This document shows, piece by piece, positions 4,181-54,654 of a stretch of 64,000 nucleotides of DNA. The translations under genes were made by a program, and so were the position numbers. Under the pieces are notes generated by a model that had not been told where the DNA came from, ran no database searches, and worked only from the letters and a program-made list of their open reading frames with translations. The DNA is from Spirochaetes bacterium GWF1_51_8 (GTDB lineage Bacteria > Spirochaetota > Brevinematia > Brevinematales > GWF1-51-8), in the NCBI GenBank assembly GCA_001829415.1, contig MIBE01000010.1:69926-133925 (forward strand). Direction: 5' to 3'. Numbering within the stretch: the stretch's first letter is position 1; each line of letters opens with the position of its first letter.

Positions 4181-4391
4181 TGACAAACTCATTTTATCTT
4201 TGCGTGGCATCATGGTGAGCTTGCCTGCCTTCTCCTTCGGAGAAGGAGACAGGCCGAACCATAGCCGAAGCAATCTATTTAATTACTGGATATATCAATT
4301 AAATAGACTGCTTCTACCGCGCTTCAAAAATTTTTCGTAGCGCGGTATCGCAGTGACAAAAAATCGTGCATTTCATGACTTTGTCAACACG
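4181..4391. repeat. Palindromic mini-repeat, copy 1 (long imperfect hairpin with a nested sub-hairpin)
   Basis: Arms GAAGCAATCTATTTAATT (4267-4284) and AATTAAATAGACTGCTTC (4297-4314). Outer arms TGACAAA / TTTGTCA. Nested UUCG hairpin CCTGCCTTCTCCTTCGGAGAAGGAGACAGG at 4224-4253. Related copies at 30612-30750 and 51684-51844. Confidence 0.85.
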
Positions 4392-5402: not shown

Positions 5403-5999
5403 CAGGAGAGTTCTAAAAATTCTCCACGGATGCAAAACCATCTGTTCTTTCTTTCTTCAAAACCAGAAAGAAAGAACCAAAGAAAGAGGTTCCCCGCCCG
5501 ATGCCGTTCCGAAGAAGAAGGGCGCGAAACGGGAAACGCCGAAACTCGCGTTCAACTGCCAAAAAAAAGCGTTAGAAAGTCACGCTTCGGACATCGGCGT
5601 TTCTTGCCGTTCCGCTTGGTAGAAGTCACGGCATAGCGGCGGGGTTCGAACAGCCGAAGATATAACTACATGGCAGAATTGAACTTGGCTGTTTGACCCG
5701 CGCACTTTAAAGCGCTTTAAACTACCGGAAAATCCGACCAAGGGCGCATGTCCGACACAGTCCCGTTGTCGCTCAAGAGGTCATTTCATGCGAGTTGCGC
5801 CCGTCTCGGATTTTCCTGCTGTTCTCCTGAGCTTTATCAGCGCGCCGGGTAGCTTGCCCCGCGTTCCTTGCGGGGTTCTTTGCTTACTTTCTTTCTGCCC
5901 GCTCACCGCGCCTTCCGCCGATGGCGTCGGCGGACAGGGAAAGAAAGTAAGAGTGTATTCATAGATTTTCTAAAACCCTTAAGGTTTTTAGAAGTACCC
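5403..5999 (+). repeat. About 600-nt hairpin-dense non-coding element, copy A (candidate large structured RNA or non-autonomous mobile element)
   Basis: Reverse-complement match to 54055-54654. Multiple perfect stems, for example 5444-5456/5465-5477, 5533-5542/5594-5603 and 5727-5737/5806-5816, and a long-range pairing 5492-5506/5629-5644. No ORF is conserved between the copies. Confidence 0.9.
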
Positions 6000-30611: not shown

Positions 30612-30750
30612 CCTTGTCATTGCGAGTGTAGCGAAGCAATCTATTTCATTATTCGAAAATAAATTACACCGATTGCTTCTACCGCGCTTCAATAAGTTTC
30701 TGTAGCGCCTGTCTACCTTCGGTAGAAGGCAGGCGGTATCGCAATGATAA
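30612..30750. repeat. Palindromic mini-repeat, copy 2
   Basis: GTCATTGCGAG...GCGAAGCAATCTATTTCATT...GATTGCTTCTACCGCGCTTC...CGGTATCGCAATGA. Nested hairpin CCTGTCTACCTTCGGTAGAAGGCAGG at 30708-30733, here in the opposite arm compared with copy 1. Confidence 0.85.
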
Positions 30751-37769: not shown

Positions 37770-37793
37770 TCGCGCCTCCTTCGAATCGGTATT

Positions 37794-37822
37794 ATTGTAA
37801 GAACAACGGCGTTTTTTTTCAA
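37794..37822 (-). promoter_or_regulatory. Sigma-70-type promoter of the cupin-purD operon
   Basis: Minus strand: TTGAAA (37822-37817), 17 nt, TACAAT (37799-37794). GAAGGAGG Shine-Dalgarno precedes ATG 37769. Confidence 0.5.
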
Positions 37823-37872
37823 GCGGAGGGAAGGAGTATTTTAGGCATAGGACGCAGGCGGAGGGTTTTGTA

Positions 37873-38040
37873 TTATTCGCCCGGCGCGTACTTTATCAGC
37901 TCCTCGATGACCGCGAGGGGTTCGGCTGCCTCGAACGAAAAGACCGGGTTGGGCAATGCGGACAGGGCGGCGGTTAGGCCTTCCGGGGTAAGCCGGATAC
38001 TTCGCCCGGGATCGCCGGGATTGAACATGAAACGTTCGAG
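37873..38040 (-). pseudogene. Detached 3'-terminal fragment of a ybaK-like gene (duplicate of 39052-39161 plus an alternative C-terminus)
   Basis: The minus-strand frame reads ...LERFMFNPGDPGRSIRLTPEGLTAALSALPNPVFSFEAAEPLAVIEELIKYAPGE*, with the stop at 37873-37875. 37931-38040 matches 39052-39161 with 4 mismatches in 110 nt. Confidence 0.8.
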
Positions 38041-38994
38041 CTATTTCTGTATGATATCCACCGTTTTTGCATATTGGTTACAGTATTCGCCACGGTCGGG
38101 ATCGAAGTATTTATGCTTGATGTTTTTCCCGTCGGGATAATCGTTATGCCCGCTTTTGGATAACACCGGGTCGTCCTTGGTCACATCAACGATATGCCAT
38201 GCTCCGTCGTAGTAAACTTCGTTCCACCCGTGAATACTCTTAGTTACACCGTTCTCTTTTTTCACACCCAGTATGCATTTAGCGGGGATCCCTATCGCAC
38301 GGCATAATGCGGCGGTTAGCGAACTGTATCCCCGGCAGACAGCCTTTCCAGTCTGCAGCACCTGCAACGCCGTATCCTCACTGTCCGGATCGGAATGGTA
38401 ACTGCAATGCTTCGCGACCCAGTCGTGGATGGCAAGGACTTTTTCCTTTTCCATCGAGAGCCCCATGGTTATTTCCTGCACCTGCTTAATTATTGCAGGA
38501 TCGAGCGATTGTACCCAATAGGAGGGTACCAGGTACGACAAGTTGTTGGTATTGATATTAATAATATAAAATTTCGCCATCCTTATCCAGACACCTTTAT
38601 CGTCCGGCCCAGCCAAAAGGGTTATCCGATAGCTTCCCTGATTGAGCTTGAAAAATATTGTATATTCGAAAAATCCCGGACCCTCCTGGAAATATTTAAT
38701 TCCTACGCCGGATGTTTCATGAAATACGGAGACCGCCATCTTTGGATAGGGATTAGCTAATAGATTGGTGCCGGAAATCGTGAAATAACCGTCCGCGCGG
38801 TTGGTCATCCCCCAGTCTCCGTTAATAGTGCCCCATTCACCATACTTTGTCTGGTGGTACATTTTTCCCGTGCCCACCGTGCCGAGATACCCGTTCAAAT
38901 GATACCCGCCAGGAAGTGTAATTCCGAAGTTTTGTTCCGCGCCAAGAGGTAAAGTCATAATGCATAATAAGAAAACAAGGATAGATAGTTGCAT
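38041..38994 (-). CDS. Secreted transglutaminase-like cysteine protease-fold protein (cassette gene)
   Basis: 317 aa with a signal peptide. Cys-His-Asp triad context CRGYSSL ... HGWNEVYYDGAWHIVDVTKDD. The stop codon abuts the 110-bp repeat. Confidence 0.8.
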   Translation of the reverse strand: MQLSILVFLLCIMTLPLGAEQNFGITLPGGYHLNGYLGTVGTGKMYHQTKYGEWGTINGDWGMTNRADGYFTISGTNLLANPYPKMAVSVFHETSGVGIKYFQEGPGFFEYTIFFKLNQGSYRITLLAGPDDKGVWIRMAKFYIININTNNLSYLVPSYWVQSLDPAIIKQVQEITMGLSMEKEKVLAIHDWVAKHCSYHSDPDSEDTALQVLQTGKAVCRGYSSLTAALCRAIGIPAKCILGVKKENGVTKSIHGWNEVYYDGAWHIVDVTKDDPVLSKSGHNDYPDGKNIKHKYFDPDRGEYCNQYAKTVDIIQK

Positions 38995-39008
38995 GTCGGA
39001 ATCCCTCG

Positions 39009-39527
39009 TCAGTTCGATATTTTTTTAATAATTATACCGGATTCTCCGGATTCGAACGTAAAGACCGGGTTGGGCAAAACGGACAGGGCGGCGGTCAGGC
39101 CTTCCGGGGTAAGCCGGATACTTCGCCCGGGATCGCCGGGATTGAACATGAAACGTTCGAGGGTGAAAATTTCGCGGTCGATATAGATCGGAATGGTGCC
39201 GGATGTGTGGCCGAACGGCGGAACGGAACCCGGGCGGCATCCAGTGTTCGCGGAAACTTCTTCGTCGGTCGCGAAACGGATATCCTTTGTGCCGAACTCC
39301 TTTTTGAACATCCGGGCCTTGATCTGCTTTCCGGCGGTCGTCACCACGAGGTAAAACTTACCCTTCGCGTGAAAAAGGATGTTCTTGCTTCCGGCGCCTA
39401 TGGTCCAGCTTTGGAGGGCCCGTTCGCGCGCGGAGTCGTCGGTAGTGACGACCGCGGCGTGCTCTATCTCGTCATAGGGGATATCCGACTTCTTCAGGAT
39501 AGAAACGATTTTGTCATAGACCGTCAT
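39009..39527 (-). CDS. YbaK/ProX-type aminoacyl-tRNA editing domain protein
   Basis: 172 aa. KNILFHAKGKFYLVV and GCRPGSVPPFG motifs. The last 14 aa are encoded by the unique sequence between the repeat and the cassette gene. Confidence 0.8.
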   Translation of the reverse strand: MTVYDKIVSILKKSDIPYDEIEHAAVVTTDDSARERALQSWTIGAGSKNILFHAKGKFYLVVTTAGKQIKARMFKKEFGTKDIRFATDEEVSANTGCRPGSVPPFGHTSGTIPIYIDREIFTLERFMFNPGDPGRSIRLTPEGLTAALSVLPNPVFTFESGESGIIIKKISN

Positions 39528-42977: not shown

Positions 42978-43031
42978 ACAATTTCTCGCCCGAAGTTTGC
43001 CCATTTCAGAATCCTTGCTTATCCTATTGCG

Positions 43032-43511
43032 ATGGAGGATTCGATGAGAAATCTGCTGTCCAAGTTCAGCCTGAAAACGCAGACTCCCGTGCTGATCGTG
43101 AACCCGCCCGCGGAGTTCGCCGAGGGCCTCGCCGAATTCGAGGCGGCGACCGAGGTACACGGCGTTCCCGACGCCGGGACGAAATACGGCTTCGCGCTCC
43201 TTTTCGCGAAGGACGCCGCCGAACTGGAAAAGTACGCACCCGCCGTTCTGAATTCCTACGAGGGCGACGCGGTACTCTGGTTTGCTTATCCGAAAAAGAC
43301 GTCGAAGAAGTACAATTCCGACCTTTCACGCGACGAGGGCTGGAGGGTGCTCGGCAACGCCGGACTCGAGCCGGTCAGCCAGATCGCGGTCGACGACGAC
43401 TGGTCGGCGGTCCGTTTCCGCGCGGTGGGGTATATTAAGAAAATGATCCGGCCGGAGGGCGGGATGCTGAGCGAAGCCGGACGCGCCCGTGCGAAGAAAG
43501 ATAAAAAGTGA
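43032..43511 (+). CDS. Conserved hypothetical cytoplasmic protein
   Basis: 159 aa. Codon usage matches neighbouring genes. No motif that I can name. Confidence 0.5.
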   Translation: MEDSMRNLLSKFSLKTQTPVLIVNPPAEFAEGLAEFEAATEVHGVPDAGTKYGFALLFAKDAAELEKYAPAVLNSYEGDAVLWFAYPKKTSKKYNSDLSRDEGWRVLGNAGLEPVSQIAVDDDWSAVRFRAVGYIKKMIRPEGGMLSEAGRARAKKDKK

Positions 43512-43984
43512 CCAATCCCATACTCGGGTTTTTCCGAACTATCGGCCTATTCGTCGCCGGACGGGTAAAGTATCATACCGGAAGTAAGGGGCAAGTCCTC
43601 ACCATGGACGACGGTAAGAAGTTCACCGTATTCCGCCATGTCGTGATCCGTCCGGGGAAAAACGCGCCCGAGCCGCAGGCTGTGTTCGTTGTCCGTTTCC
43701 GCCCGAAGAAAATGTCCGTCCGCGCGAATATCCGTTTCTCCCTCCTCCCGATGATGATCTTTATGGGGTTTTCCGGCTTCCGTTCTAAGTACTGGGCGGT
43801 GGATTACGAGACCGGATTGTGCCAGGGGCTTTACGAATGGCAGACGGCCGCCGATGCGGAGAACTACAGCCGTTCGGTCGCGATGCGGTTCATGGCAAAA
43901 CGTTCCGACCCTGTGTCCGTTGAATGGAGGATAGTGGAAAAAGGAAAAGATAAGAAAAGTTTATTTGAGCTTAAAGACAAATAA
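43508..43984 (+). CDS. Hypothetical protein
   Basis: 158 aa. 4-nt overlap with the upstream gene suggests translational coupling. Confidence 0.5.
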   Translation: MTNPILGFFRTIGLFVAGRVKYHTGSKGQVLTMDDGKKFTVFRHVVIRPGKNAPEPQAVFVVRFRPKKMSVRANIRFSLLPMMIFMGFSGFRSKYWAVDYETGLCQGLYEWQTAADAENYSRSVAMRFMAKRSDPVSVEWRIVEKGKDKKSLFELKDK

Positions 43985-44167
43985 TCTCCAAGTAAGAATG
44001 CGTTTGCGATTCAGGCGGGAATGCGGTTTCCACGCCGGATTTGGGCTGTACTTCAATTCCACCAGGCCGAGGATGACGCCGATCACACAGATGAACGCGG
44101 ATAATCATAAAAAAGGTGAAAGAAACGGATTTACCCGAGATTGAAGAGATTATCAAGGAGAAGAGGA

Positions 44168-44428
44168 ATGATTTCATCGGCGAATGGAATAAGCATTTCG
44201 GAATATGAGGTCACAAATATCGAACGATTAGGATTTTGGCTGTATGTCGACGATACGGAATATTTCGTCAGTTTCGACCGGTTTCCCGCATTTAAAAACG
44301 CGCCCGTGGGGCAAATTCTGAATGTAAAACGCCTCGACCCTTCGCAATTCAACTGGCCCGATCTGGATATCGACGTCGATATCGAATCGTTGAGCGCACC
44401 GGACAAGTATCCGTTGGAATATAAGTAG
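44168..44428 (+). CDS. DUF2442-family small protein
   Basis: ATG 44168 follows AAGGAG. GFWLYVDDTEYFVSFDRFPAFKNAP...NWPDLDIDVDIESL is typical of DUF2442. The sequence just upstream reads like the C-terminal remnant of a DUF4160 partner (..FIGEWNKHFGI*). Confidence 0.65.
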   Translation: MISSANGISISEYEVTNIERLGFWLYVDDTEYFVSFDRFPAFKNAPVGQILNVKRLDPSQFNWPDLDIDVDIESLSAPDKYPLEYK

Positions 44429-44509
44429 AAAAAATCCGCATGAGTATTGTTATCGCATGGAGACTGCGGTAAGGCCGATGCGGCAGGCTTACTGTATTAA
44501 TAAAACTTC

Positions 44510-44588
44510 TTACAAAAACCTTTCGTCGAAAAACCGTTTCGCTTCCTTCACCAGCCTCTCGCGCTTCCCGAACAGCACCTTCGCGGGG
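44510..44588 (-). pseudogene. Detached duplicate of the last 79 nt of the DinG-like helicase gene
   Basis: Matches 45457-45535 with 3 mismatches. The minus frame reads ...AKVLFGKRERLVKEAKRFFDERFL*, against ...FFNERFL* in the intact gene. Confidence 0.85.
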
Positions 44589-44615
44589 CGTTTTTTTATT
44601 TCGGCAGGCGGGGTA

Positions 44616-44653
44616 TAAGAAAAACGGGAAAAGTAATTATCATACTTTTCCCG
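44616..44653 (-). terminator. Rho-independent terminator of the cassette gene
   Basis: Stem CGGGAAAAGTA/TACTTTTCCCG (44625-44635/44643-44653), followed on the minus strand by TTTTTCTT. Confidence 0.7.
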
Positions 44654-44676
44654 TAAGGTTTGTTAATACGATCGGG

Positions 44677-45273
44677 TTACCATGTGATGATATAGGTACA
44701 ACTGTTAGTCCCGTTCTTTCGACAAGGCGCCGAATCAAGATGGGTGACTGAAGCTTTCAGTTCGAATTTTTTTGCCATTGCGGTGATGATTCCTTTATCA
44801 AAATCGCAGGGATAGGGATTGTTGCATTCGCTGATTATCATATTTTTACTGCTCAATCTCTCGAAGCCGTAATGCCCGATACCTTCCTTCATGTTTCCGG
44901 TGCTCGGATCGAAGAGCGGAATATTGTTTTTCCGGTGATTCATATGATACGCGACGTCGATAGATTTTATAGCGGTATCGATATCCTTGACCCACGGGGG
45001 AAAGATCGCGTTTTCAGGTATTTTTAATCCTATTTGGAAGAGAGTCCCGCTTCCTACTTCCTTTCCGATATTTTCGAATGCTTTCAGCCATTTTTCCTGA
45101 GAATACCATGCATCTTTGTTAATCACCGCTACGCCATCGGAACCTTTTTCTCCGATTCCCTGTTCAAGCAGATACTTTGATGCCATAATTTTAAAATTCC
45201 TGAACCCGTCAACAATAGAAAATACCGTCGTACCGTTTACCTCGATTCCGTTTTCAAATACCCTGTACTGCAT
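44677..45273 (-). CDS. Hypothetical protein (cassette gene controlled by the GTTTCTAT operator)
   Basis: 198 aa; MQYRVFENGIEVNGTTVF...CTYIITW. No motif that I recognise. GGAGGAAGG Shine-Dalgarno precedes the ATG. Confidence 0.6.
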   Translation of the reverse strand: MQYRVFENGIEVNGTTVFSIVDGFRNFKIMASKYLLEQGIGEKGSDGVAVINKDAWYSQEKWLKAFENIGKEVGSGTLFQIGLKIPENAIFPPWVKDIDTAIKSIDVAYHMNHRKNNIPLFDPSTGNMKEGIGHYGFERLSSKNMIISECNNPYPCDFDKGIITAMAKKFELKASVTHLDSAPCRKNGTNSCTYIITW

Positions 45274-45310
45274 ACCTTCCTCCGGATATAGAATTCAATT
45301 GAAAACACTG

Positions 45311-45377
45311 ATAGAAAAACATAGTAACATGTTTCTATACATAGAAACATGTTACTATGCATAGAAACATTTGTCAA
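45311..45377 (-). promoter_or_regulatory. Promoter plus tandem palindromic operators of the cassette gene
   Basis: Minus strand: TTGACA (45377-45372), 17 nt, TAACAT (45354-45349). Palindromes GTTTCTATACATAGAAAC (45331-45348) and GTTACTATGCATAGAAAC (45351-45368), plus a degenerate unit at 45311-45328. Confidence 0.65.
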
Positions 45378-45456
45378 GGAAATTTGTGATTTGTATCGAT
45401 TGATAAAGAAAAACAGAGGCATATTACAGAGAAATGTTAATACAAGCGGAGCGGGA

Positions 45457-47937
45457 TTATAAAAACCTTTCGTTGAAAAACCGTTTCGCTTCCTTCACCA
45501 ACCTCTCGCGCTTCCCGAACAGCACCTTCGCGGGGGGGAGCGAGTTCAAAAAGTTACTGCCGTAGTTCTTCGTCTTCAAGCGGTTGTCCATGATCGCGAT
45601 CACGCCTTTGTCGGTCTTACTGCGGATCAGGCGGCCCATTCCCTGCTTGAGGCGGAGGATCGCGCGGGGCAGGCTGAAGCTGATGAACGAGTTGACACCC
45701 TTCGAGTCTAAGAGCGCGACCTTCGCGCGGTAGATCGGGTCGTCGGGATTGTCGAACGGGAGTTTCTCGATGATAACGCAGCGGAGGTTGTCGCCCCGGA
45801 TATCGATCCCCTCCCAGAAGCTCGATGTCGCGAAGAGGACGCTGTAGCCCCGGCTCTTCATCGTGTCGAGCAGGAGGTTGCGCGCGCGTTCGCCCTGACG
45901 GATCGGGAGGAGGCCGTGCTCCATCAGCTCGTTCTTCAGGAGGCCGTACATCTCGGTCAGCCGGAGGTAGGATGTGAACAGCGCGAGGACACCGCCCTGG
46001 CTCGCGAGGCAGAGGTCGCGGACAAACCCGGTCTTCTCGCCGGTCACCTTGCTGTGCTCCCCGCCGTCCTCGAGGATATAGATTTCCGCTTGTTTCCGGT
46101 AGTCGAACGGCGAGGGGAGCGAGAGTTCGAGCATCTCCTTGTTCGACGCCAAGTTCAGTCCGGTGCTCATCCGGAAATAATCGAACTTTTTATTGACCGA
46201 GAGCGTCGCCGAGGTGAAGATCGTGAAGTCCTTCTTGCCGAAGATCGAGTTCGCGAGGAAATCGCCGACCTCGAGCGGGCTGAAGGAGAAACGGATGTTC
46301 TTCGGGGTGACCTCTATCCATCGCACCTGCTCGGGCGTGGTTTCGGAGAGGAAGACCGTGTTGAAGATATCGCTCATCTCGATCAGGGTGTCGATCCGCG
46401 AACGGACGATACGGACGATGTCGGTATACGAGTTGTCGGTCGCGCTGTCGAACAACCGGTTCATGAGCGATGTCAGTTCCCCGACAAACTTATTGAGCAT
46501 GCCGAAGAGCGACTGGAGCTTGTCGCGCAGGTATGCGAAGTCTTTCGTGCCCCGGTAGACGTCGTCGATCCCGATTGTCGACGAGAACTCCGATCCCTTC
46601 CGTAAAACCTTCATAAACTCGTCGAAAAGCTCGTGCGACACACCCGCGACCGTTTTCAGCAGGTTGAGGAGCTGTTCGTAACTTTCGACCAGCTCGGGAT
46701 GCGCATGGATACCGCCCTTCCTCGCTACCAGAGTAATCAAGCCCGATTCACTGCTGTCGCGGCGCTTCTTGAAATAGAGCTTACGCAGGTGGTAAAAGAG
46801 GCTCTGGAACGAGAAGCTCCGGGAGAGCGAACGGAGCGCGGTGTCTTCTATATGGTGCGCTTCGTCGAACACGATTCCGGAGTAGAACGGCATGACGTTG
46901 CGGTAGGACTGGATATCGATCGACGAGAAGACGAGCGAATGGTTCGCGATGACGATCTGCGCCTTTTCCGCGCCGAGCCTCGCTTTATAATAGAAACACG
47001 CGCTGTAGTAACGGCACCGTTTGCGGTCGCACATCATGCTCTCGCTTCTGATCTCTTCCCATATCTCTTCCTTGACCTGCTCGGGGTACTCCCCACGGGT
47101 ACCGTTATGCCCGCTCCGCGACCAGAGCTCGATATCGTGCAGGAGCAGGCCCTCGTTCTCGCTCTCGAACAGGGAACTTTGTGTATCCTTGTCGCGCAGG
47201 AGGTCTGTGAGCCGTTTCCGGCAAAGGTAGTTTCCACGTCCGACCAATACCGCGTGATAGAGCGGTTTATTCAGGTACTTCATCACGACCCGTTCGACGA
47301 TCTGCATATCCTTTTCCGCGATCTGCTGCTGGAGATTGATCGTGTGGGTGGAGATCATCACGCGTTTTTTATTCTCTACCGCCCAAAGCGCGGCGGGGAT
47401 AAGGTACGAAAGTGATTTCCCGGTGCCCGTCCCGGCTTCACAGAGCAGTATCTTCGAGTCGTTGACAGCCCAGACAACGTGCGCGACCATATCGATCTGC
47501 TCGCCGCGCGGTTCGAAGTTCGCGATATTCTCCGAAAGGACGCCGTGGTCGCCGAACAGCCCCAGCACTTCCTCGTCCTTGAGGTAGACCCGCGAACGGG
47601 GCTGGAGGACGATATTGACCTCGGTGCATTCGTTATTGACGATATAGAAGCCGACCATCCTGTTCGCGAGAAGCGATGAGAGTTCGATATCTTCCACCGA
47701 CGGCACGGTGTTCCCCGACGGGTGATTGTGGATGACGACGTCGCCGGACAACGCTTCCATCATCGAGATGACGGTCGCGTCCTCGCTCCCGAACGACATC
47801 GGCGAGACCTCGACGGCTTTCCCGCTCCGGTCGACACTGCCGGAGAACGAGACTTCGTTGCCGCCGTTCTTGTCGATATATTCTACGATAGTCCTGATCG
47901 CGTCTTCGGAAAGGACCTGAGCTGCGTTTACTTTCAT
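45457..47937 (-). CDS. dinG: DinG/XPD-family Fe-S DNA helicase with an N-terminal RadC-like JAB/MPN domain
   Basis: 826 aa. JAMM motif HNHPSGNTVPSVED (47689-47730). Walker A AGTGTGKS, DEAH box VFDEAHH, four Cys of an XPD-type cluster (LCRK, MMCD, RCRYY, SACFY), and a C-terminal helicase_C_2-like region. Confidence 0.85.
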   Translation of the reverse strand: MKVNAAQVLSEDAIRTIVEYIDKNGGNEVSFSGSVDRSGKAVEVSPMSFGSEDATVISMMEALSGDVVIHNHPSGNTVPSVEDIELSSLLANRMVGFYIVNNECTEVNIVLQPRSRVYLKDEEVLGLFGDHGVLSENIANFEPRGEQIDMVAHVVWAVNDSKILLCEAGTGTGKSLSYLIPAALWAVENKKRVMISTHTINLQQQIAEKDMQIVERVVMKYLNKPLYHAVLVGRGNYLCRKRLTDLLRDKDTQSSLFESENEGLLLHDIELWSRSGHNGTRGEYPEQVKEEIWEEIRSESMMCDRKRCRYYSACFYYKARLGAEKAQIVIANHSLVFSSIDIQSYRNVMPFYSGIVFDEAHHIEDTALRSLSRSFSFQSLFYHLRKLYFKKRRDSSESGLITLVARKGGIHAHPELVESYEQLLNLLKTVAGVSHELFDEFMKVLRKGSEFSSTIGIDDVYRGTKDFAYLRDKLQSLFGMLNKFVGELTSLMNRLFDSATDNSYTDIVRIVRSRIDTLIEMSDIFNTVFLSETTPEQVRWIEVTPKNIRFSFSPLEVGDFLANSIFGKKDFTIFTSATLSVNKKFDYFRMSTGLNLASNKEMLELSLPSPFDYRKQAEIYILEDGGEHSKVTGEKTGFVRDLCLASQGGVLALFTSYLRLTEMYGLLKNELMEHGLLPIRQGERARNLLLDTMKSRGYSVLFATSSFWEGIDIRGDNLRCVIIEKLPFDNPDDPIYRAKVALLDSKGVNSFISFSLPRAILRLKQGMGRLIRSKTDKGVIAIMDNRLKTKNYGSNFLNSLPPAKVLFGKRERLVKEAKRFFNERFL

Positions 47938-51683: not shown

Positions 51684-51844
51684 TTGACAAACTTGTCTTG
51701 TCATTGCAAGGCGTCATGGGGAGCTTGCCGAAACATAGCCGAAGCAATCTATGTTATTAACTGATTAATAATTACATAGACTGCTTCACCGCTTCGCGTT
51801 TCGCAGTGACAAGAAATCTATTTAATACCGGCTTCGTCAACACG
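51684..51844. repeat. Palindromic mini-repeat, copy 3 (no nested sub-hairpin)
   Basis: TTGACAAAC...GTCATTGCAAG...GAGCTTGCCGAAACATAGCCGAAGCAATCTATG...CATAGACTGCTTCACCGC...GCAGTGACAAG...CGTCAACACG. Collinear with copy 1 apart from the missing 30-nt module. Confidence 0.85.
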
Positions 51845-54024: not shown

Positions 54025-54054
54025 TATACTCACGGACGAGTGATAATGCCTGAC

Positions 54055-54654
54055 GGGTAGTTATAAAAACCTTAAGGATTTTAGAAAACTATAAATATAC
54101 TCTTACTTTCTTTCTGAGCGGGCACCGCGCCTTCCGCCAGCCTTCCATCTCAGAAGGAAAGTGAACAGGACGATGGCGTCGGCGGACAGGGAAAGAAAGT
54201 AACAAAGAACCCCGCAAGGAACGCGGGGCAAGCTATCCGCCGCGCTGATAAAGCTCAGGGGAAGAGCCGGAAAATCCGGAAAAGGCATAACTCCTCCCTT
54301 CGGTCGTCGAACAAATGCCTTTTCTTCGGATTTCCCGGGAGTTTGAAGCGCTTTAAAGTGCGCGGACAAAACAGCCAACTTCAGTCACCTATTCATGTCT
54401 TCGGCTGTTCGAACCCCGCCGCTATGCCGTGACTTCTACCAAGCGGAACGGCCAGAAACGCCGATGTCCGAAGCGTGACTTTATATCGCTTCTTTTGGCG
54501 GCCGACCGCGAGTTTCGGCGTTTCCCGTTTCGCGCCCCTCTTCTTTGGAACGGCATCGGGCGGGGAACCTCTTTCTTTCGTTCTTTCTTTCTGGGTTTGC
54601 AGAAAGAAAGAACAGTGGGTTTTACATCCTTGGAGATTTTTTTGAACTCTCCTG
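54055..54654 (-). repeat. About 600-nt hairpin-dense non-coding element, copy B (reverse orientation relative to copy A)
   Basis: The reverse complement aligns end to end with 5403-5999. It carries a 33-nt insertion (54139-54171) and an oppositely oriented IR-flanked segment (54103-54203). Confidence 0.9.

What the first reader, a model, noticed from the sequence alone, without database searches (positions are those of the whole stretch)
37873..39161. Single-gene cassette (transglutaminase-like protein) inserted into the 3' end of a ybaK-like gene, bracketed by 110-bp direct repeats
37931-38040 and 39052-39161 are direct repeats of 110 bp with 4 mismatches; the 64 nt at the high-coordinate end of each repeat are identical. 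They correspond to the 3' coding region of the YbaK/ProX-like gene. Between them lies exactly one gene (38041-38994, minus strand), encoding a secreted transglutaminase-like Cys-His-Asp protein. Its stop codon abuts the downstream repeat, and its own TATAAT-containing upstream region lies at 38995-39051. The intact ybaK-like gene (39009-39527) now ends with 14 codons read from sequence unique to the upstream junction (..FTFESGESGIIIKKISN*). The detached downstream copy continues in frame to a different, more natural-looking terminus (..FSFEAAEPLAVIEELIKYAPGE*, stop at 37873-37875). So a 1.0-kb promoter-plus-gene unit has been integrated into the end of a host gene, together with a long duplicated or supplied copy of the target. 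These repeats are far longer than transposase target-site duplications. They look more like attL/attR of a site-specific integration, yet no integrase accompanies the cassette. The same architecture recurs 6 kb away at the DinG-like gene (see the next finding).
Basis: seen in the sequence. Interest (0 to 1): 0.6.

Follow-up and report, generated by a model that had tools for sequence, protein, structure and literature searches.

The report
Stacked alternative ends of ybaK gene
A housekeeping gene (ybaK) in an uncultured spirochaete carries two alternative 3' ends in tandem with a transglutaminase-like gene between them, which is most likely a scar of homology-guided gene exchange between strains that do and do not carry that gene, not the footprint of a new integrase-driven mobile cassette.

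Summary
There is a 123-nt direct repeat (92%; 110 nt at 96%, first 65 nt identical). It brackets one Transglut_core gene at the 3' end of a YbaK/tRNA_edit gene. A detached, in-frame ybaK 3' end lies downstream.

The sister genome L025 has ybaK followed directly by the cupin gene (an empty site). Its YbaK tail matches the detached tail (10/15 residues; 0/2000 shuffles reach the score).

The gene does not look like a roaming cassette, though. The only close homolog (L004, 64%) sits at the same ybaK-cupin position in the other clade. Its divergence is typical of the flanking genes. L004 also keeps about 10 codons of its own sister's (L026) native tail downstream, at a different junction.

No recombinase lies in the 64 kb. 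The ybaK and DinG sites share no core motif.

Best explanation: the locus has two forms, with and without TGase, each with its own ybaK tail. One homologous crossover plus one non-homologous join, or a small circle integrating by homology, stacked both ends. This is the 'C-terminal displacement' pattern known from rhs and T6SS effector loci, here on housekeeping genes. Interest is modest.

The parts
39162..39527 (-). Unique 5' part of the ybaK-like gene (codons 1-122)
   Evidence: ORF 39009-39527; Pfam tRNA_edit E=2e-23. The protein is P0001, named in NCBI as from Spirochaetes bacterium GWF1_51_8.
39039..39161 (-). Proximal repeat copy B. It is part of the intact ybaK and encodes LERFMFNPGD...PNPVFTFE.
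   Evidence: It is 106/111 identical to copy A but only 83/111 identical to the sister L025.
39009..39050 (-). Current AT-rich YbaK tail (..SGESGIIIKKISN, stop at 39009-39011). It contains the hairpin CCGGAGAATCCGG and a TATAAT.
   Evidence: The tail is a ybaK-tail homolog closest to L026's (score 23, 0/2000) and unlike the detached tail (2/13).
38041..38994 (-). Transglutaminase-like gene, 317 aa, with a hydrophobic N-terminal signal-like segment
   Evidence: Pfam Transglut_core E=1.1e-24. The only close homolog is in L004, at the same position. It is 63.7% identical, within the range of the flanking genes.
37918..38040 (-). Distal repeat copy A, a detached ybaK 3' fragment. It starts directly after the TGase TAG stop and is in frame with it.
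37873..37917 (-). Displaced native YbaK tail (..AAEPLAVIEELIKYAPGE, stop at 37873-37875)
   Evidence: It matches L025's native tail PAESLAIIEKLAPGA at 10/15 (score 38, 0/2000 shuffles).
37770..37872 (-). Spacer holding the cupin-purD promoter (TTGAAA-17-TACAAT, 37822-37794). It has about 55 nt more than L025/L026, where the ybaK stop overlaps the -35 box.
45457..45535 (-). Second site: proximal repeat copy, the last 26 codons plus stop of the DinG-type helicase gene
   Evidence: Its 3 differences from the distal copy are all derived GC-to-AT changes relative to L004 (sequences).
44589..45456 (-). Second-site cargo. It comprises a promoter (-35 at 45377-45372) overlapped by palindromes (45320-45369), a 198-aa gene (44677-45273), a terminator hairpin (44652-44626 plus a T run), and a short spacer.
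   Evidence: GC is 42% against about 57% in the flanks. The gene belongs to a large uncharacterised family. It is absent from L004.
44510..44588 (-). Second site: distal detached copy of the DinG 3' end including the stop codon
   Evidence: It matches L004's DinG end at all 3 variable positions.

Best explanation
The ybaK-cupin junction has two forms in this group of Brevinematales-like spirochaetes. The 'empty' form is ybaK followed directly by cupin. The 'filled' form is ybaK with a different 13-14-codon tail, followed by a transglutaminase-like gene.

In this genome the 3' ends of both forms are stacked in tandem. DNA of one form recombined with a chromosome of the other using ybaK (or cupin/purD) homology on one side only. 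The other side was closed by a non-homologous join, TGase stop | ybaK codon 123. Equivalently, a 1,121-bp circle (ybaK 3' segment + tail + TGase) integrated by a single Campbell-type homologous crossover.

The result keeps ybaK intact with the tail linked to TGase and shunts the native end downstream as a silent fragment. This is the 'C-terminal displacement' architecture. The same process acted at the DinG gene 6 kb away, with a different, horizontally acquired cargo.

Shown: the anatomy, the empty sites in sister genomes, the orthology of the detached tail, and the absence of a recombinase and of a shared core. Inferred: the recombination route, and which of the two forms was resident.
For: (1) Empty sites exist. 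L025 and L026 have CBM21-ybaK-cupin with 48-49-nt spacers and no TGase trace.

(2) The four genomes form two sister pairs: window with L025 (71-88% aa) and L004 with L026 (79-96%). Each pair has one filled and one empty member.

(3) The detached tail matches the sister's native tail (10/15, 0/2000 shuffles). The current tail is a different ybaK-tail allele.

(4) L004 repeats the pattern. Its current tail is unlike that of its sister L026 (4/14, although 29/37 just upstream). After TGase and 50 nt it keeps the last ~10 codons of the L026-type tail (..SIIRKLDDTT* against ..AVIDKLDVTT*; blastn 62/74, E=4e-11). So the right junction is at a different place.

(5) In both filled genomes, divergence from the empty sister begins right after the conserved ..PNPVxxFE, where homology for a crossover ends.

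(6) The two copies are 95.5% identical to each other but only 75% identical to L025. So the stacking, or the last homogenisation, is recent compared with the split from L025, and both copies come from close relatives.

(7) TGase is 63.7% identical to L004's. This is within the range of the flanking genes (54-86%), and the gene is GC-poor in both genomes. Only these two close homologs exist. TGase has therefore long been tied to this locus and is not roaming.

(8) No integrase or transposase lies in the window. The two sites share no motif beyond chance. The cargo genes are not on phages or small mobilisable plasmids.

(9) Homologs of the DinG-site cargo in other genomes lack flanking host-gene repeats.

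(10) The same architecture and a circle-plus-homologous-recombination model were published for rhs (PMC2935791). An HFIR model was published for T6SS effectors (PMC5361080).
Against: - The right junction falls exactly after the TGase stop codon, and both sites duplicate the 3' end of the gene immediately upstream. That looks more orderly than random illegitimate joining, although selection for intact genes would filter outcomes this way.
- No intact empty-site allele of this species was found, and no reads could be examined.
- Only four genomes inform the history, so the direction of the event (TGase incoming, or the ybaK fragment incoming) is unresolved.
- All 4 mismatches among the first 110 nt lie after position 65 (chance about 0.03). 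This needs gene conversion or uneven divergence as an extra assumption.
- A recombinase encoded outside the 64-kb window cannot be excluded.
Confidence: 0.6

Rival explanations
1. Site-specific integration. The 1.1-kb and 0.95-kb units are integrase-less cassettes, like cis-mobilizable elements. A tyrosine or serine recombinase encoded elsewhere moves them. The repeats are attL and attR, and the element supplies a surrogate 3' end.
For: The units target a gene's 3' end with a replacement end. The repeats have sharp left boundaries. There are two examples within 6 kb in the same orientation.
Against: No recombinase lies in the cassettes or in the 64-kb window. No common core or boundary motif links the two sites (score 7 against 8.0+/-1.2 for shuffles). 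L004's event has a different junction. TGase has no other homes. Homologs of the 198-aa gene lack such flanks.
Confidence: 0.12
2. A single ancient insertion-duplication in the common ancestor of both clades. The empty genomes arose by repeat-mediated precise excision. The repeats and the detached end are kept fresh by gene conversion and by recombination with empty alleles in the population.
For: TGase divergence mirrors genome divergence. Both filled genomes break from their sisters at the same ..FE point. Recombination between the repeats would restore exactly the empty form. The mismatches are clustered.
Against: A non-functional 56-codon fragment would have to stay open and 73-76% identical to L025's functional tail region for as long as the clades have existed. 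L004 has no long repeat left, so L026 could not have arisen from an L004-like state. The tails of the two filled genomes are only weakly alike (4/13; 59/2000 shuffles reach the score).
Confidence: 0.2
3. Local tandem duplication of the ybaK 3' end followed by divergence, with no exchange between strains.
For: The direct repeats are in register and the detached copy is in frame.
Against: Both the sister and the outgroup genomes lack TGase. The two tails are unalignable while the adjacent 110 nt are 96% identical. The current tail is closest to the other clade's tail.
Confidence: 0.04
4. Assembly artefact that merges a strain with TGase and a strain without it.
For: This is a metagenome-assembled genome. 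The 65-nt identical segment breaks k=31 unitigs.
Against: The novel junction TGase-stop|ybaK is present in an independent Logan unitig. A separately assembled JGI contig crosses both repeats and both sites at 100% identity.
Confidence: 0.04

Closest known systems
C-terminal displacement at rhs loci (Jackson et al. 2009, PMC2935791); also the orphan CdiA-CT and MafB modules cited there
   Same: An intact gene is followed by a dissociated fragment made of a near-identical stretch of the gene's conserved 3' region plus a different tip. A new tip and a linked downstream gene are inserted, and the old tip is shunted downstream and silent. The proposed route is a small circle (core fragment + tip + intervening gene) that integrates by homologous recombination. 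The core fragments vary in length.
   Different: Here the genes are housekeeping genes (a YbaK-type deacylase and a DinG-type helicase), not polymorphic toxins. The 'tip' is only 13-18 codons and has no toxin or immunity logic. There is a single displacement per locus, not a string of them. No selection for tip diversity is evident.
Homology-facilitated illegitimate recombination (de Vries & Wackernagel 2002; Prudhomme et al. 2002), as invoked for T6SS effector displacement in Vibrio cholerae (PMC5361080)
   Same: A one-sided homologous anchor is combined with a non-homologous join at the other end. Non-homologous DNA is acquired next to a conserved gene, and a 3' remnant of the previous gene end is left downstream.
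   Different: Classical HFIR usually deletes recipient DNA between the anchor and the illegitimate joint. Here recipient sequence is retained as a duplicate. Natural competence of this organism is unknown.
Campbell-type insertion-duplication (single crossover of a circular molecule carrying a short homologous segment), as used in insertion-duplication mutagenesis
   Same: It yields exactly this product: the insert flanked by direct repeats equal to the homologous segment, one copy from the donor and one from the recipient. The product is reversible by repeat recombination.
   Different: That is a laboratory construct with plasmid vectors. A natural 1.1-kb non-replicating circle is hypothetical here.
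Integrase-less elements flanked by att sites at 3' ends of genes (cis-mobilizable elements derived from ICEs/IMEs)
   Same: Direct repeats at the 3' end of a conserved protein-coding gene, a surrogate 3' end, and no integrase inside.
   Different: There is no conserved att core, no cognate integrative element nearby, and only about 1 kb holding a single cargo gene. The junction varies between relatives. This comparison rests on my own knowledge.

Membership tests
C-terminal displacement / insertion-duplication by homologous recombination | An intact gene followed downstream by a detached fragment that repeats the gene's conserved 3' region and carries a different terminal tip | tested here: met
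   Copies B and A are 106/111 identical. The tails share 2/13 residues.
C-terminal displacement / insertion-duplication by homologous recombination | The detached tip is the former native end, shown by relatives that carry it attached | tested here: met
   L025's intact YbaK tail matches the detached tail at 10/15 (0/2000 shuffles). L026's tail matches L004's remnant.
C-terminal displacement / insertion-duplication by homologous recombination | Donor and recipient share high identity in the anchor, and the length of the retained fragment varies between events | tested here: met
   Identity in the anchor is 95.5%. The retained fragments are 168 nt (window ybaK), about 30 nt (L004) and 79 nt (DinG).
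C-terminal displacement / insertion-duplication by homologous recombination | A circular or linear recombination intermediate, and dependence on RecA | not testable with these tools
   This needs read data or experiments. The Logan unitig graph is compatible with a circle but equally with the integrated form.
Site-specific integrative element (attL/attR) | A cognate tyrosine or serine recombinase in the element or nearby | tested here: not met
   Pfam scans of the 50 distinct window ORFs submitted (nearly all of at least 150 aa) found none. The rest of the 190-kb contig and the genome were not available.
Site-specific integrative element (attL/attR) | A conserved core or crossover sequence shared by independent insertions | tested here: not met
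   Local alignment of the two repeats and of the junctions is no better than shuffles. The L004 junction is at another position.
Transposable element with target-site duplication | A transposase, terminal inverted repeats, and a short fixed-length duplication | tested here: not met
   There is no transposase. The duplications are 79 and 123+ nt and differ in length. No terminal inverted repeats were reported in 36-41 kb.
Integron gene cassette | An attC hairpin site at the cassette end and an intI/attI platform | tested here: not met
   There is no intI. The TGase stop abuts the repeat with no attC-like element. There are no Rfam hits.
Diversity-generating retroelement (template/variable repeat pair) | A reverse transcriptase, with mismatches confined to adenines of the template repeat | tested here: not met
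   There is no RT. The mismatches are G/A, T/C, T/A and A/T.

The most novel reading that the evidence does not exclude
These are members of an unrecognised class of minimal, integrase-less single-gene circles of about 1 kb. Each carries the 3' end of a conserved host gene as its homing sequence. The circles cycle between excised and integrated states by repeat recombination and spread between strains. That would make ybaK and dinG 3' ends dedicated docking sites in this lineage.
Probability: 0.1. Interest if true: 0.7.

Novelty: new member of a known kind. Interest (0 to 1): 0.35.

Why it matters
If the reading is right, the C-terminal displacement route is not special to toxin loci such as rhs, cdiA and T6SS effectors. 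It would be a generic by-product of one-sided homologous exchange, able to add accessory genes behind ordinary housekeeping genes while keeping them intact.

Such scars mark strain-variable loci in uncultured lineages. They give a datable record of gene gain, because the divergence between the two copies can be measured. They also warn annotators that short ORFs such as the 51-aa 'gene' called here are displaced gene ends.

This does not open a long-standing question, and no new machinery is implied by the evidence in hand.

Tried and rejected
- DGR-type template/variable repeats: rejected. The mismatches are not adenine-specific and there is no RT.
- Circular form from the 1,116-bp Logan contig: uninformative. 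Its ends are what a k=31 unitig gives at a 65-nt repeat.
- Intact empty-site allele of the same species: none found. The next YbaK is 76% identical. Exact-protein look-ups of the flanking cupin and 82-aa proteins returned only contigs 100% identical to the window.
- TGase as a widespread mobile cargo: rejected. There are 2 close homologs, and the third (37%) lies in an unrelated paralog array.
- Flanking host-gene repeats around homologs of the 198-aa cargo (L028-L030): none.
- Shared core motif between the two sites: none.
- Cargo genes on phages or plasmids: only distant hits on non-mobilizable replicons for the 198-aa protein, and partial (at most 55% coverage), low-identity TGase-domain hits on mostly non-mobilizable plasmids.
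- Defence annotation (PADLOC): none.
- A longer decayed ybaK remnant in L004's spacer: not significant (143/1000 and 585/1000 shuffles reach the score).
- tRNA or Rfam elements at the sites: none.
- One NCBIfam call failed on a bad coordinate and was not repeated.
- A paralogous ybaK in the same MAG as the source of the fragment: no such protein appears in the database search.

Full report
**Observation.** The repeat finder reports 37918-38040 and 39039-39161 as a 123-nt direct repeat at 92%. blastn reports the inner 110 nt with 4 mismatches. In gene orientation the first 65 nt are identical. Four mismatches follow at positions 66, 83, 84 and 103, then five mismatches in positions 111-117. After that the two sequences are unalignable.

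Between the copies lies one ORF, 38041-38994 (-), 317 aa, Pfam Transglut_core E=1.1e-24. The upstream gene 39009-39527 (-) is a YbaK-type tRNA_edit protein, E=2e-23. The TGase TAG stop is immediately followed by copy A, in the same frame. Copy A reads on to ..FSFEAAEPLAVIEELIKYAPGE*.

A second structure of the same design sits at the DinG-type helicase gene. Copies of 79 nt at 96% lie at 44510-44588 and 45457-45535. They include the stop codon and enclose a 198-aa gene. A tblastn scan with the last 60 residues of all 152 ORFs of at least 90 aa found detached 3' copies only for these two genes.

**Is it an artefact?** The window belongs to 'Spirochaetes bacterium GWF1_51_8' (name attached to P0001). 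A separately assembled JGI contig is 100% identical across both sites. Logan unitigs contain the two novel junctions: tail-TGase-TAG|CTCGAA.. in L003, and copy A through to cupin in L032. The k=31 graph by itself cannot tell the integrated form from an empty site plus a 1,121-bp circle. The long contigs do resolve it as integrated.

**Comparative evidence.** Scans with a restored YbaK found Brevinematales relatives. Pairwise identities of up to eight neighbouring proteins put the four informative genomes into two sister pairs: window with L025 (71-88%) and L004 with L026 (79-96%).
- L025 and L026 have CBM21-ybaK-cupin with 48-49-nt spacers, the ybaK stop overlapping the cupin -35 box, and no TGase trace.
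- L004 has the same order as the window, with a 317-aa TGase gene between ybaK and cupin.
- The more distant L008 is empty.

So each sister pair contains one filled and one empty site.

**The tails.** After the conserved ..PNPVxxFE:
- The window's detached tail (AAEPLAVIEELIKYAPGE) matches L025's native tail (PAESLAIIEKLAPGA) at 10/15, score 38; no shuffle in 2000 reaches it.
- The window's current tail (SGESGIIIKKISN) shares 2/13 with the detached one. Its best match is L026's native tail, from the other clade (score 23, 0/2000). The detached piece is therefore the lineage's native ybaK end, and the current tail is another ybaK-tail allele linked to TGase.
- L004 repeats this. Its current tail differs from its sister L026's (4/14, against 29/37 just upstream).
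- Fifty nucleotides after L004's TGase stop, its spacer carries the last ~10 codons of the L026-type tail (SIIRKLDDTT* against AVIDKLDVTT*), continuous with the cupin promoter (blastn 62/74, E=4e-11).
- L004 has no long repeat. An attempt to recognise a longer decayed remnant there failed.

**Age and origin.** TGase is 63.7% identical between the window and L004. This is within the range of the flanking genes (54-86%), and the gene is GC-poor in both genomes. Among the 5.8 billion protein sequences searched, only these two close homologs exist. TGase has therefore long been tied to this locus and is not a roaming cassette.

In contrast, copies A and B are 106/111 identical to each other, while each is only 83/111 identical to L025. 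The region encoded by A is as similar to L025's functional protein as the rest of YbaK is. So the stacking, or the last homogenisation of the copies, is recent relative to the split from L025, and both copies come from close relatives.

**The DinG site.** All three differences between the copies are derived GC-to-AT changes in the proximal copy. The distal copy matches L004's DinG end (sequences). The cargo has 42% GC against about 57% in the flanks. It has its own promoter overlapped by palindromes, and its own terminator.

The cargo belongs to a large uncharacterised family: over 900 hits at E<=1e-5, 57-71% identity among the listed top hits, several phyla, and no Pfam, PADLOC or PDB match. 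Three homologs examined are solitary genes in unrelated neighbourhoods, with no host-gene repeats around them. L004 lacks the gene. The duplication is thus a property of the insertion event in this lineage, not of the gene family.

**Mechanism.** A site-specific integrase model is not supported:
- Pfam scans of the window's ORFs (50 distinct ORFs, nearly all of at least 150 aa) found no recombinase or transposase.
- The two repeats and their junctions share no motif beyond chance (7 against 8.0+/-1.2 for shuffles; 117/500 for the junctions).
- The L004 junction lies elsewhere.
- Neither cargo occurs on phages or small mobilisable plasmids.

The anatomy is what a single homologous exchange plus one non-homologous join produces. 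That could be a small circle (ybaK 3' segment + tail + TGase) integrating by a Campbell-type crossover. It could also be a linear fragment anchored by homology on one side (HFIR). The direction is open. Either TGase with its tail entered an empty chromosome, or a fragment of an empty allele (ybaK 3' end to cupin) entered a filled chromosome, anchored on the cupin/purD side. Both give the same product.

This is the architecture published as C-terminal displacement for rhs, with the same circle model (PMC2935791). It was also attributed to HFIR for T6SS effector-immunity modules (PMC5361080). That only 3'-end events are seen is expected from selection, since they leave the host gene intact.

**Uncertainties.**
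- Only four genomes inform the history.
- No empty allele of this species and no reads were available.
- The clustering of mismatches in the distal part of the repeat (chance about 0.03) suggests some gene conversion.
- The exact abutment of copy A to the TGase stop codon is tidy enough that a trans-acting recombinase cannot be fully dismissed.
- A rival in which one ancient insertion is maintained as a polymorphism, with excision through the repeats, remains plausible (about 0.2).

**Verdict.** The insertion/displacement reading is supported, and the att-site reading is not. This is a new example, on housekeeping genes, of a known recombination scar. Interest is modest (0.35).

Noticed in passing
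window 5403-5999 and 54054-54653: An inverted repeat of about 600-630 bp at 78% identity, 48 kb apart. It looks mostly non-coding. Its nature is unknown.
   Followed up: partly
window 4294-4343, 30632-30708, 51740-51787: A recurrent intergenic palindromic motif (GAAGCAATC...GATTGCTTC), followed in two copies by CTACCGCGCTTCAA. It may be a REP-like or regulatory element.
   Followed up: no
window 44677-45273 (-) and upstream 45320-45377: The 198-aa DinG-site cargo belongs to a large, strongly conserved uncharacterised family: over 900 hits, 57-71% identity among the top hits, about 197-200 aa, many phyla, with no Pfam, PADLOC or PDB match. Its promoter is overlapped by three TAGAAACATGTTTCTA-like palindromes.
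   Followed up: partly
L004 10523-11476 compared with window 38041-38994: In the only close TGase homolog the catalytic-motif cysteine is replaced. The window has GKAVCRGYSS and L004 has GKAVFWGYCS. L004's copy may be inactive or may use a shifted cysteine.
   Followed up: no
window 38041-38043 / 37873-38040: The TGase TAG stop is in frame with the detached ybaK fragment. Readthrough would append 56 residues. The chance of being in frame is 1 in 3.
   Followed up: no
window 37912-37927 (contigs L033-L035): Three short contigs from other Rifle assemblies all start within 15 nt of the point where similarity between copies A and B ends. They also end within 85 nt of each other in purD. They may come from the same reads, or this may mark a strain-variation boundary.
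   Followed up: partly
window 37823-37872: About 55 extra nucleotides lie between the displaced ybaK stop and the cupin -35 box. In L025 and L026 the ybaK stop overlaps the -35.
   Followed up: no
window 42978-44509: The DinG-cvpA interval is a variable spot. The window has two unannotated ~159-aa genes and a DUF2442-like small gene. L004 has about 590 nt of non-coding DNA, and L026 has an unrelated 186-aa gene.
   Followed up: partly
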